From the NCBI GenBank assembly GCA_038087875.1, contig CM075991.1:12464001-12528000 (forward strand): 64,000 nt of DNA. Direction: 5' to 3'. The translations under genes and the position numbers were made by a program. This document shows positions 25,232-32,546 of the stretch, piece after piece (position 1 is the first letter of the stretch; each line of letters begins with the position of its first letter). The stretch is from Malacoraja senta. Taxonomy: Eukaryota. Under the pieces are notes generated by a model. The model saw nothing but the letters and a program-made list of their open reading frames with translations. It was not told the DNA's origin and made no database searches.

Positions 25232-26246
25232 TGCAACAGTTGAAGTGAGCGAGCTTGTATTGGTCGCAGCTGAGGTGAAGCTTGTACTTTGATTACATCC
25301 GGATCCATTTATTGTTAGTGAGTGGGATGATTCTACCAGCTGGGGCCTGTTTGGGGTGAGGTTGTTCTGTAGAAACGATACAGTGAGGGGTTTAAACTGA
25401 AGATGGACACAGAGTGCTGGAGTAACTCAGTGGGTCAACCTATCCATGTTCTCCACAGATGCTGCCCGACCTGCTGAGTTACTCCAGCACTGTGTCTGTG
25501 AAACGTCACCTATCCATGTTCTCCACAGATGCTGCCTGACCCACTGAGTTACTCCAGCACTGTGTCTGTGAAACGTCACCTATCCATGTTCTCCACAGAT
25601 GCTGCCTGACCCGCTGAGTTACTCCAGCACTCTGTGAAACGTCACCTATCCATGTTCTCCACAGATGCTGCCTGTGGCAGGGAATTCCACAAATTCACAA
25701 CTCTCTGGGTGAAACATTTTTTCTCACCTCAGTCTTAAATGACCTCCCCTTTATTCTAAGACTGTGGCCCCTGGTTCTGGATGCCGAACATAGGAACATT
25801 CTTCCTGCATCCAGCTTGTCCAGTCCTTTTATAATATTTATGTTTCTATAAGATCCCCCTCATCCTTCTAAACTCCAGTGAATACAAGCCCAGTCTTTTC
25901 AATCTTTCCTCATATGACAGTCCCGCCATCCCAGGGATCAATCTCATGAACCTACGCTGCACTGCCTCAAATTAGGAGACCAAAACTGTACGCAATACTC
26001 CAGATGTGGTCTCACCAGAGCCCTATACAACTGCAGAAGAACCTCTCTACTCCTGTACTGAAATCCTCTTGTTATGAAGGCGCTGTGAGGCAGCAGCTCC
26101 ACCCGCTGCACCACCTTGCCGCCCCTGTACCTCAGTACACGTGACAATAAACGAAAGAGTGTGCAGCCAATGAACCTTGTCCCCAGTCACATTGTGTGTG
26201 AACAGATTAAAAACCAACACAGCCTTGTGTCAGCTACCAACAGTGT

Positions 26247-26252
26247 TTTATT
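26247..26252 (-). terminator. GNRH1 polyadenylation signal AATAAA
   Basis: tttatt on the + strand, about 97 nt after the stop codon. Confidence 0.75.
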
Positions 26253-26348
26253 GTGACCATGTACACGTTAAACACACACACACAGGCAGTCTGCGTTCTG
26301 GACCTGGAGGGATAGCCAGGACGATTGTGACCAGCTAAAGCAGGACAG

Positions 26349-26477
26349 TCAGACACGTGCTGAGGATGGAGTGTGCTGGCAATCATCCCGTCCAGGGCTG
26401 TACTGATATTCCTCGCGCTGCACCGACACTTGGTGACAGTTTGCATCCGCTGTCTTCCAACCTGGTGCAAACTTAGC
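26349..26477 (-). CDS. GNRH1: GNRH1 exon 4 coding part (GAP C-terminus)
   Basis: tttgtgtcttgcag|GCT AAG TTT...TGA (26351-26349), followed by a short 3' UTR and AATAAA. Confidence 0.8.
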   Translation of the reverse strand, partial: AKFAPGWKTADANCHQVSVQREEYQYSPGRDDCQHTPSSARV

Positions 26478-29400
26478 CTGCAAGACACAAATAGTGGTAG
26501 ACACTAAACGCTGGAGTTAGTAACTCAGCGGGACAGGCAGCATCTCTGGAGAGAAGCAATGGGTGACGTTTCGGGTCGAGACCCTTCTTCAGACTGAGAG
26601 TGAGGGGAGAGGGGAACGAGAGATATTGAGATATCTCAGAAGGGTCTCGACCCGAAACGTCACCCATTCCTTCTCTCCAGAGATGCTGCCTGTCCCGCTG
26701 AGTTACTCCAGCATTTTTGTGTCTACGGTTTAAACCAGCATCTGCAGTTCCTTCCTGAACACAAACAGTGGGTAGAATGCATCATTAATAAATAATTTAA
26801 ACAAATATCCACTGACTTGACCTCCAGAGCCTTCTGTGGCAAATAATTCCACAGATTCACCACCCTCTGGCTAAAGAAATTCCTCCTCATCTCCTTTCTA
26901 AAGGTACGTCCTTTAATTCTGAGACTGTGCCCTCTTTTTCAAGACTCTCCCACGAGAAGAAACATCCTCACCACATCCAGGCCTTTCACTATTGGTAAAG
27001 TTACAATGAGGGGACCCCTCATCCTTCTAAACTCCAGCGAGCACAGGCCCAGCGCCGTCAAACGCTCATCAAATGTTAACCCACTCATCCCTGGGATTGT
27101 TCTTGTAAACATCCTCCAGATTTAACCCTTTCTCTTACCACGGTGTTGGCGCGACAGTCAGGGTACAGTTGCTCAGCCCGATCGTACTGCTCCATGCTGT
27201 CCACATTATCAGTCGCCTGGAATCACAAAGTGACCATCGATCATCAAAAGACAAAAGTGTTTGCACAAAACCTTCTGTAAAAATCTAAGCGTGATTCCCT
27301 CATCTTGTATCTGTCTGCCCTCTGTGGACGGATCGATTGTAATCATGTATTGTCTTCCCGCTGACTGGTTAGCACGCAACAAAAGCTTGTCACTGTACAC
27401 GTGACAATAAACTGAAGTTAAGTTATTGGCTGGTACATGGATAGGGAAGGTTTAGAACCAGGGGTGGGGAACCTGCGGCCTTCTAGCCCATTAAGTGCGG
27501 GCCTTTTGAATGAATCCAAATTTTGTAGAACAAATCCTTTTATTTTTATTAATATGTTTTAGTTCGTCTTTTATTATTTTTATTTTAATCTTAAAATGAA
27601 CGTATTTAAAATACCAAAGAGTAAAAGAAGATTCAACAAAATAATCTCCCCCGACTGATGGCCACAATTAAAACATTAGTAAGTCATGAAGGATATTTTA
27701 TTGCCACAAAGAGTTACTCGCTTTGGGCATTCTTACAGGTGGAACACGAGGAACAGATTCCTTCAACAACTTTCAAGATAAATGTCGTGAAGTATATCTA
27801 ATTGAAGATTCTTGGATGCGGCCTTATTAGATTACAGCTAACTTAATGCGGCATTCCGACATGAAAAGGTTCCCCATCCCTGGTTTAGAGGAACCTGGGC
27901 CAAACGTGGGCAAATGAGACTAGCATGTTGGTTAGCACGGTGAGATGGGCCGAAGGGCCTGTGTCTGTGCTGTCTAACTGTAACTTTATGATGAACAATT
28001 GCAACTCCCTCTAAGTTTGGAGACGACGTGACCAGTTAGAAGTTTGAAGAAGGGTCCCGACCCGAAACGCCACCAGAAATGCTGCCTGACCCGCCGAGTT
28101 TAGTTTAGTTTAGAGATACAGCGCAGAAACAGGCCCTTCGGCCCATCGAGTCCATGCCAACCAGTGACCCCGCACACTAACACTATCCTACACACACTAG
28201 GGACAATTTTACATTTATACCAATGAACCTACAAACCTGCACGTCTTTGGAGTGTGGGATCTCAGAGAAAACCCACGGGGTCACGGGGAGAACGTGCAAA
28301 CTCCGTACAGACAGCACCCGTGGTCAGGATGGAACCCGGGTCTCTGGCGCTGTGAGGCAGCAACTCTACCGCTGGGTCTCGTCCCCTCACCGCGCAGTTG
28401 TGGGGGGGATGGTGGCCTGTGGCATCACACACACACACTAACCACCCCCCCCACACACACTAACCACCCCCCCCTTGATATTATATTAATATTAATCATT
28501 CGCTCCTTTTACCCCTTCCCCGCCCTATCCACTCACGCATAGCCCCCAACTCACAGACGCGGTTAGAGAGGGAGAAGGAGGGGGGTAGAGAGAGAGGGCA
28601 GAGAGAGAGAGAGAGGGCAGAGAGAGGAGGCAGAGAGAGAGAGGGCAGAGAGAGAGAGAGGGCAGATGGAGAGAGCTGGTTCCCGAAAGCAATACTTTAC
28701 CACTCACCCATAGGTCCCAATACTCACCACTCCCCAGAGAGGGAGGGAGCAGAGAGAGAGGGCAGAGACAGAGGGAGAGGGCAAAGGCAGAGAGAGAGGG
28801 CAGAGGCAGCGAGAGAGGGCAGAGACAGAGAGAGAGGGCAGAGGCAGAGAGAGAGGGCAGAGACAGAGAGAGAGGGCAGAGGCAGAGAGAGAGGGCAGAG
28901 GCAGCGAGAGAGGGCAGAGACAGAGAGAGAGGGCAGAGACAGAGAGAGAGGGCAGAGGCAGAGAGAGAGGGAAGCAGGCGGACATGGACTCGAAGGAGGC
29001 TGCGGGTGGGTGTCGACCCGAGGACCGCGAGCGAGGTTGCGGGCAGGTGGGCAGGCGGGCAGACGTTGACCAAAGGAACGTGAGTTCGGCGCTTCAGTCC
29101 AGGGCCTGACTTCATCTCCGGCGGCATCTTTTAAAAATAAAAAACGCGAAAATCTGCGAAGTCTGTGAAAAATCTGTCTTTTTAAATAAATGTTATCTTT
29201 AAGAACAATAAAAGCAACGTTAATGTATTAAAATTTTCCGTTAAACAAAAAAAAAGAGGATCAATTGGACAAAAATTGTGAAATGTTTCCAAGTGCGTTC
29301 AACACCATCCAACCCGTGATTCTCAACGACAAACTTGAGAAGATGGGGGTAGATTCCACCTTCACCTCCTGGATATACAACTACCTGACGGGTGGACCAC

Positions 29401-31693: not shown

Positions 31694-32422
31694 TCTGCAA
31701 GGAAACTGGTAGACAATGTGGTGAAGGGGGTGTTTGTCCCGCTGGCCTGCACCAGGCAGGAACCATTTACTATTTACAGAAACCAATTAAGCTAAGGTAG
31801 ACACAAAACGTCACCCATCCCTTCTCTCCAGAGATGCTGCCTCACCTGCAGAGTTACTCCAGCATTTTGTGTCTACCTTCGATTTAAACCAGTTCGTTCT
31901 TACACACTTTAACCAATTAAGTTAATTCCACTTGCCCGCATTTGGCCAATACTCCTATTTTTTACAGCCTCATATTTGCAACGTCATATTACATTAGTTT
32001 AGTTTACAGATACTTTGGAGTGTGGAAGAAAACCCATGCGGTCACAGGCAGAACGGACAAACTCCGTACAGACAGCACCCGTAGTCAGGATCGAACCCTG
32101 TCTCTGGTGCTGTGAGGCAGCAGCTCTACCCGCTGCACCACCGTGCCGCCCCAATTACAGATGCAGGGAAGTGGCAGATGAGCAGTTAGTTATATTAGTG
32201 TTAAACAAGACACACTTGAACCATTGTAAAAAAAAGACACAGCGTGCTGGAGTAACTCAGCGGTCATGGCAACATATTGGGTCAAGATCCTTCTCCAGTC
32301 TGACAAAGACTCCCATCCCAAAACGTCACCTATCCATGTTCTCCACAGATGCTGCATATCTGACCCGCTGAGTTACTCCAGCGCTGTGTGTCTGCACGGC
32401 AACAAGAGCACGATGACCTTAC

Positions 32423-32465
32423 CTTGTGGCTGTGGCGTTGACTGCTGGTTCCGCTCTATGATCTT
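32423..32465 (-). other. GNRH1: GNRH1 non-coding exon 1 (TSS approximate)
   Basis: Strong donor AAG|gtaagg at 32423/32422, about 65 nt downstream of a TATATAAA box. This matches the usual 4-exon GnRH layout with a non-coding first exon. Confidence 0.75.
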
Positions 32466-32486
32466 TGGCTGGGTCCGTGCTGGCAG

Positions 32487-32546
32487 TTTATATACAACAC
32501 AGACATGTCTACACCAGCAGGGACACACAGCATGGAGCAAGGATTA
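32487..32546 (-). promoter_or_regulatory. GNRH1 core promoter: TATA box (32494-32487) and bicoid/Otx-type TAATCC (32546-32541)
   Basis: The minus strand reads TATATAAA and TAATCC at these positions, upstream of putative exon 1. Confidence 0.65.

What the first reader, a model, noticed from the sequence alone, without database searches (positions are those of the whole stretch)
26230..32494. Complete GNRH1 gene with the mammalian-type decapeptide QHWSYGLRPG in an apparent elasmobranch
Seen in sequence: TATA box, non-coding exon 1, exon 2 (23-aa leader, QHWSYGLRPG, GKR), two further phase-0 exons and a polyA signal, all frameshift-free and easily missed among repeats. Established: QHWSYGLRPG is mGnRH, and DOCK5-GNRH1-KCTD9 is the GnRH1 syntenic block. 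Recollection, to be verified: the chondrichthyan GnRH1 peptides described from sharks and chimaera are divergent (e.g. QHWSFDLRPG, lacking Gly6). Inference: if this is a skate or ray, it keeps the canonical Tyr5-Gly6-Leu7-Arg8 peptide. That would make mGnRH the ancestral gnathostome GnRH1 and the shark/holocephalan forms derived, with consequences for receptor selectivity in a lineage where GnRH is thought to reach gonadotropes through the general circulation.
Basis: partly seen in the sequence, partly recalled or inferred. Interest (0 to 1): 0.9.

Follow-up and report, generated by a model that had tools for sequence, protein, structure and literature searches.

The report
Skate GnRH1 gene, mammal-type hormone
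This is a skate's ordinary gene for the reproductive brain hormone GnRH1; its match to the mammalian hormone was already published for skates, and comparison with other sharks and rays suggests the match was regained rather than inherited unchanged.

Summary
Three coding exons on the minus strand splice at GT/AG into a 116-residue precursor carrying QHWSYGLRPG-GKR, between DOCK5 and KCTD9. The animal is a skate closest to Leucoraja. The non-coding exon 1 is plausible but untested.

The headline is not new. Gaillard 2018 (PMC6135963) states that little skate GnRH1 equals the mammalian peptide, citing Roch 2014, and RefSeq holds it.

The evolutionary inference is weakened. The softnose skate Rhinoraja has Asp6, as do 6 of 6 sharks retrieved, elephant shark and coelacanth; sawfish has Asn6. 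Parsimony needs 4 changes at position 6 with Asp through the cartilaginous-fish stem, against 5-6 for unbroken Gly. Skate Gly6 is more likely a one-base reversal than a retention; the margin is thin and the gnathostome root stays Gly or Asp.

Minor gains: exon 3 is real (the Leucoraja model lacks it), and skates share an extended 80-residue GAP. No earlier scan note on this gene was found.

The parts
32488..32494 (-). TATA-box match
   Evidence: function untested
32423..32470 (-). Putative non-coding exon 1 (start approximate; donor after 32423)
   Evidence: Donor AG|GTAAG; region single-copy in the assembly; 3 other TATA+donor pairs in the window; no transcript evidence
31550..31694 (-). Exon 2: ATG at 31693, 23-residue leader, decapeptide, GKR, first 12 GAP residues
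   Evidence: 85% identical to Leucoraja XP_055518406.1
31595..31624 (-). GnRH1 decapeptide QHWSYGLRPG; codon 5 TAT, codon 6 GGC
31586..31594 (-). GKR amidation and cleavage signal
   Evidence: role from established knowledge of GnRH precursors
27139..27216 (-). Exon 3, 26 residues, middle of GAP; absent from the Leucoraja RefSeq model
26230..26477 (-). Exon 4: 42 GAP residues (10 in five sharks), stop at 26351-26349, 3' UTR
26247..26252 (-). AATAAA polyadenylation signal
5884..14447 (+). Neighbour DOCK5, DHR-2 exons (open frames sampled in this span; gene limits not mapped)
   Evidence: Pfam DHR-2 lobes; best solved-structure match DOCK5 E 6.5e-23 against DOCK2 8.4e-17
44590..47833 (-). Neighbour KCTD9, BTB-domain exons (gene limits not mapped)
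   Evidence: Pfam BTB_2; best match KCTD9 E 1e-21 against KCTD5 1.4e-10, both for the frame at 44590-44913

Best explanation
A functional single-copy GNRH1 gene of a hardnose-type skate close to Leucoraja. Shown: exon-intron anatomy, open 116-residue frame, synteny, orthologues. Inferred from established knowledge of GnRH precursors: the leader routes the precursor into the secretory pathway; convertase cleavage at KR, trimming, amidation using the Gly of GKR and cyclisation of Gln1 release pGlu-HWSYGLRPG-NH2 plus an 80-residue GAP; the peptide from forebrain neurons acts on GnRH receptors of pituitary gonadotropes. On history (about 0.65): cartilaginous fish carried Asp6, and the Leucoraja-like lineage went back to Gly by one A-to-G change after splitting from softnose skates. 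Tyr5 may be a similar earlier reversal from Phe (about 0.5).
For: Anatomy. Synteny; PMC6135963 names KCTD9 and DOCK5 as the GnRH1 flanks. Lineage: with decapeptide and GKR removed, the window groups with Leucoraja (100/96), then Rhinoraja (100/98); identity 59 of 77 and 53 of 98. One GnRH1-type and one GnRH2-type exon were found in the assembly. History: Rhinoraja Y5-D6; F5-D6 in 6 of 6 sharks retrieved and F5-N6 in Pristis; I5-D6 in elephant shark; D6 in coelacanth. Position 6 needs 4 steps at minimum against 5 (unit cost) or 6 (nucleotide cost) for retention. Codon 6 is GGC, one transition from an Asp codon. Achiral Gly6 favours the bound beta-turn and L-residues lower affinity at the mammalian receptor (PMC5662886 passage).
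Against: No transcript or peptide data for this species. Exon 1 is unverified. The reversal margin is 1-2 steps. Without elephant shark, unit-cost parsimony ties 4 against 4 (nucleotide cost 4 against 5). Position 5 ties under unit cost (3 against 3; nucleotide cost 3 against 4). Without Rhinoraja and Pristis all comparisons tie. Rhinoraja and Pristis are each one predicted database protein. Asp6 demonstrably arose or was lost more than once (coelacanth), so parsimony is a weak guide. No stingray, electric ray, lungfish or further rajid sequence was in the count.
Confidence: 0.85

Rival explanations
1. Retention: Tyr5-Gly6 passed unchanged from the gnathostome ancestor to this skate, and Asp6/Asn6 arose separately in chimaeras, sharks, sawfish, Rhinoraja and coelacanth.
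For: Root Gly6 and Tyr5 cost no extra steps. The ray-finned fish and tetrapods used all have Gly6. Coelacanth shows that Asp6 can differ from its relatives independently. Ties under unit cost when elephant shark is left out, and at position 5.
Against: Needs 5 (unit) or 6 (nucleotide) changes at position 6 against 4. Asp6 sits in the skate's closest sampled outgroup, Rhinoraja. Gly to Asn in Pristis needs two base changes, Asp to Asn one.
Confidence: 0.3
2. The gene is real but the expressed form differs: exon 3 is skipped (90-residue form as in the Leucoraja model) or there is no separate non-coding exon 1.
For: Leucoraja XP_055518406.1 lacks exon 3; exon 3 is phase 0 at both ends so skipping keeps the frame. 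Catshark GnRH1 was described with three exons.
Against: Exon 3 has clean splice sites and orthologous sequence in Rhinoraja, Pristis and five sharks, including the cloned catshark cDNA. Elephant shark GnRH1a has the extra 5' UTR exon. The mature decapeptide is the same either way.
Confidence: 0.15
3. Artefact: contamination with mammalian DNA or a non-chondrichthyan source.
For: Only the identity of the ten residues with the mammalian peptide.
Against: Leader and GAP are 77% identical to Leucoraja and 20% (16 of 79) to gorilla. Little skate has the same peptide from an independent assembly.
Confidence: 0.01

Closest known systems
Little skate (Leucoraja erinacea) GnRH1, RefSeq XP_055518406.1; Roch et al. 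2014 as cited in PMC6135963
   Same: Identical decapeptide; 85% identity over exon 2; same 42-residue last exon (31 of 42 identical).
   Different: The RefSeq model lacks the 26-residue exon 3 (90 against 116 residues). The 2014 prediction runs into the intron after exon 2. The window is 77% identical outside the peptide, so probably another species.
Rhinoraja longicauda progonadoliberin-1-like, XP_078285059.1
   Same: 116 residues, 80-residue GAP, all three coding-exon equivalents, Tyr5.
   Different: Asp6 in place of Gly6; 54% identity outside the peptide.
Shark GnRH1 (catshark cloned cDNA, PMC6135963; five other shark proteins)
   Same: Same locus type and coding-exon layout; Leu7-Arg8.
   Different: Phe5-Asp6; GAP 44-48 residues against 80.
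Mammalian GnRH1 (progonadoliberin-1)
   Same: Identical mature decapeptide and GKR; DOCK5/KCTD9 flanks.
   Different: About 20% identity in leader and GAP; GAP 56 residues; the shared Gly6 may be a reversal in the skate.

Membership tests
Vertebrate GnRH precursor | Decapeptide Q-H/Y-W-S-x4-P-G followed by G-K-R | tested here: met
   (PF00446 over cut-off)
Vertebrate GnRH precursor | Signal peptide directly before the decapeptide | tested here: inconclusive
   23-residue leader with a hydrophobic core aligns with annotated leaders; no signal-peptide predictor was run
Vertebrate GnRH precursor | Three coding exons: peptide plus GAP start, GAP middle, GAP end | tested here: met
   layout as described in PMC6135963
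GnRH1 paralogue | Flanked by DOCK5 and KCTD9 | tested here: met
   criterion from PMC6135963
GnRH1 paralogue | Closer to named GnRH1 precursors than to GnRH2 or GnRH3 | tested here: met
   All named vertebrate hits are progonadoliberin-1/GnRH1 or unnamed predictions; a separate GnRH2 exon lies on contig C1. The tree held no GnRH2/3 rows, so it does not test this.
GnRH1 paralogue | Expression in preoptic/forebrain neurons and release of the amidated peptide | not testable with these tools
   No expression or peptide data obtained
Mammalian-type GnRH (mGnRH) peptide | Tyr5-Gly6-Leu7-Arg8 | tested here: met
   Table S4 of PMC6135963
Mammalian-type GnRH (mGnRH) peptide | Same by unbroken descent from the bony-vertebrate form | tested here: inconclusive
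   Parsimony leans against it by 1-2 steps at position 6; ties in some settings

The most novel reading that the evidence does not exclude
The exact mammalian GnRH decapeptide re-evolved in hardnose skates from a shark-like Phe5-Asp6 form in up to two single-base steps, with Rhinoraja (Tyr5-Asp6) as a living intermediate and sawfish (Phe5-Asn6-Met7) as a separate offshoot. Batoids would then be a natural series for testing how positions 5-7 co-evolve with GnRH receptors, including the tail-less type I receptor reported in skate (PMC4232701). The Rhinoraja peptide string and batoid GnRH1 variation were not found in the searchable papers.
Probability: 0.55. Interest if true: 0.45.

Novelty: already known. 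Interest (0 to 1): 0.25.

Why it matters
As posed, it matters little: mammalian GnRH in a skate has been in print since 2014 and is repeated in a 2018 open paper. Two by-products have modest value. First, the four-exon model gives a fuller rajid precursor than the Leucoraja database model, and shows a skate-specific GAP extension with conserved cysteines. Second, the comparison reverses the obvious reading: the skate's mammal-like hormone is more likely regained than retained. If so, Gly6, the residue that permits the receptor-bound turn, was lost in early cartilaginous fish and regained once, which can be tested with four synthetic peptides on skate, sawfish and shark receptors.

Tried and rejected
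Expression: the sequencing-run search on exon 4 gave no RNA holder listed (one run of unknown kind); the attempt to lay it on the gene returned no data, so splicing stays untested. A likelihood estimate of states at internal nodes was not obtained; only parsimony counts are reported. Roch et al. 2014 is not held; I saw nothing of it and rely on what PMC6135963 says and prints about it. More batoid sequences: two profile searches (best 120 of 181 listed, 116 hits, only the top 8000 candidates scored) and one HMMER search of cluster representatives (16 hits) returned 9 named chondrichthyan GnRH1 proteins and none named from stingrays, electric rays, Amblyraja or chimaeras; unnamed Logan/ENA/JGI hits were not assigned to species. 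GnRH3 was not found in the assembly, but one search scored only 150 of 331 candidates, so loss is not claimed. The Pfam matches on C2937 and at C1:177204573 lack leader and GKR and were rejected. The solved-structure search with exon 2 gave only unrelated proteins with no passing stretch. Weak Conotoxin and Fibrillin matches to the Leucoraja protein are below cut-off. Species was not determined. Scan notes returned two unrelated shark findings and nothing by sequence.

Full report
Observation. The three introns have GTAAG donors and CAG acceptors at the stated coordinates, and the exons splice to one open frame. Coding exons give 48, 26 and 42 residues, 116 in all, ending at TGA 26351-26349, with AATAAA at 26252-26247 and a TATA match at 32494-32488. 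The decapeptide QHWSYGLRPG at 31624-31595 is followed by GKR, passes Pfam's GnRH cut-off, is the only such motif in the window, and did not appear in 100 shuffles. The non-coding first exon is the weak part: its region is single-copy but TATA-plus-donor pairs occur at 3 other sites of the window, and I have no transcript data.

Identity. DHR-2 exons on the plus strand upstream match DOCK5 best among solved structures, and a BTB exon downstream on the minus strand matches KCTD9 best. PMC6135963 gives these two genes as the GnRH1 flanks (passage). In the assembly, exon 2 finds itself and one GnRH2-type exon on contig C1. To place the animal without using the peptide, I removed the decapeptide and GKR and built a tree of 20 rows (window plus 19 named GnRH1 proteins picked from the hits; first 60 residues of the Stegostoma model dropped; 81 of 172 columns kept). 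The window groups with Leucoraja (100/96), then Rhinoraja (100/98), inside a clade of 10 elasmobranch rows (100/100). Identity outside the peptide is 59 of 77 to Leucoraja, 53 of 98 to Rhinoraja and 16 of 79 to gorilla. So it is a skate, closer to Rajidae than to Arhynchobatidae among the two families sampled (families), and not mammalian contamination.

Prior knowledge. [quoted passage not shown] 2014. Its Table S4 has a row 'GnRH1 Mammals/Skate', and Data Sheet S9 prints the skate peptide. RefSeq XP_055518406.1 carries it too. I could not read Roch 2014, so whether it already argued for an ancestral mGnRH is unknown to me.

Gene model. The same paper judged the 2014 skate prediction wrong beyond the peptide exon. 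The Leucoraja RefSeq model is 90 residues and lacks the middle exon. The window's exon 3 matches the Rhinoraja model at 15 of 25 and Heptranchias at 11 of 26, and by eye the cloned catshark cDNA. The last exon encodes 42 residues in the window and Leucoraja, 43 in Rhinoraja, 20 in Pristis and 10 in five of five sharks measured. GAP is 80 residues in the window and Rhinoraja, against 44-48 in six sharks.

Retention or reversal. The searches returned 9 named chondrichthyan GnRH1 proteins. Positions 5-6 are F-D in 6 of 6 sharks (Heptranchias, Carcharodon, Scyliorhinus, Mustelus, Chiloscyllium, Stegostoma), F-N with Met7 in the sawfish Pristis, Y-D in Rhinoraja, and Y-G in Leucoraja and the window. 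Elephant shark is I-D (paper supplement) and coelacanth Y-D. I counted parsimony steps on a fixed species tree (topology from established knowledge; order and family labels partly) with 21 tips; whale shark and lungfish were not included. Position 6: minimum 4 steps, with Asp the only best state at Chondrichthyes, Elasmobranchii, Batoidea and Rajiformes; forcing Gly along the whole path costs 5 (unit) or 6 (nucleotide). Position 5: tie at 3 under unit cost, 3 against 4 under nucleotide cost. Against my reading: without elephant shark, position 6 ties at 4 under unit cost (4 against 5 by nucleotides) and position 5 ties; without Rhinoraja and Pristis everything ties; the gnathostome root is Gly or Asp at equal cost. 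The window's codon 6 is GGC, one transition from GAC. I put reversal at position 6 at about 0.65.

How it works. Processing to an amidated, pyroglutamylated decapeptide and GAP follows from established knowledge of GnRH precursors and was not tested. PMC5662886 (passages) states that the bound conformer is a beta-turn, that L-residues at Gly6 lower affinity, that Tyr5 contacts Tyr6.58 and that Arg8 pairs with Asp7.32 in type 1 receptors. This is mammalian pharmacology; whether it holds for skate receptors is untested.

What is not in print, as far as I could search. 'GnRH1' with 'batoid' gave 0 papers; the Rhinoraja-type and coelacanth-type peptide strings gave 0 occurrences, with only the shark string found, in PMC6135963; 'GnRH' with 'Rhinoraja' gave 0; 'GnRH, elasmobranch, Gly6, receptor' gave 0; none of the 15 listed of 92 papers contains 'GnRH1'. 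Searches were seen as listings, apart from the four papers read in passages. Subscription journals, where much GnRH work appears, are mostly not held, and bioRxiv supplements are closed, so the reversal reading may have been noted elsewhere.

Verdict. A real, well-spotted gene whose headline is already published. The residual interest is the probable reversal, the batoid peptide variants sitting in databases, and the skate GAP extension. Interest 0.25.

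Noticed in passing
P0008 (Rhinoraja longicauda XP_078285059.1) and P0027 (Pristis pectinata): Two GnRH1 decapeptide variants absent from the 2018 list of forms: Tyr5-Asp6-Leu7 in Rhinoraja and Phe5-Asn6-Met7 in sawfish. Each rests on one predicted protein.
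   Followed up: partly
window 26352-26477 (-): Skate-specific GAP extension with two cysteines: positions 14 and 33 in the window and Leucoraja, 14 and 29 in Rhinoraja; Pristis has only the first; five sharks stop after 10 residues. A disulfide is possible but untested.
   Followed up: partly
P0002 (Leucoraja XP_055518406.1): The database model lacks the 26-residue middle exon and differs in the first three residues of the last exon; probably an annotation or assembly gap.
   Followed up: partly
G000 whole assembly: No GnRH3 exon found by four searches, although little skate has one.
   Followed up: partly
G000:C1:385167571-385167708 (-), locus L002: GnRH2 peptide exon with the conserved decapeptide and leader.
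   Followed up: no
window 62328-63065 (+): Open frame holding the first coding exon of a phosphoglycerate mutase, best solved-structure match 6h26; probably PGAM2 (name recalled, not tested).
   Followed up: no
window 50207-55925 and 56263-57590: A CA-dinucleotide array of about 4.9 kb plus 0.6 kb, split by a 200-base N gap (55123-55322), followed by a 1.3 kb CAGGGA array; explains the extreme skews.
   Followed up: no
window 30386-30776 and 28565-28977: TCTA tetranucleotide array (about 100 copies) and AG-rich arrays inside GNRH1 intron 2.
   Followed up: no
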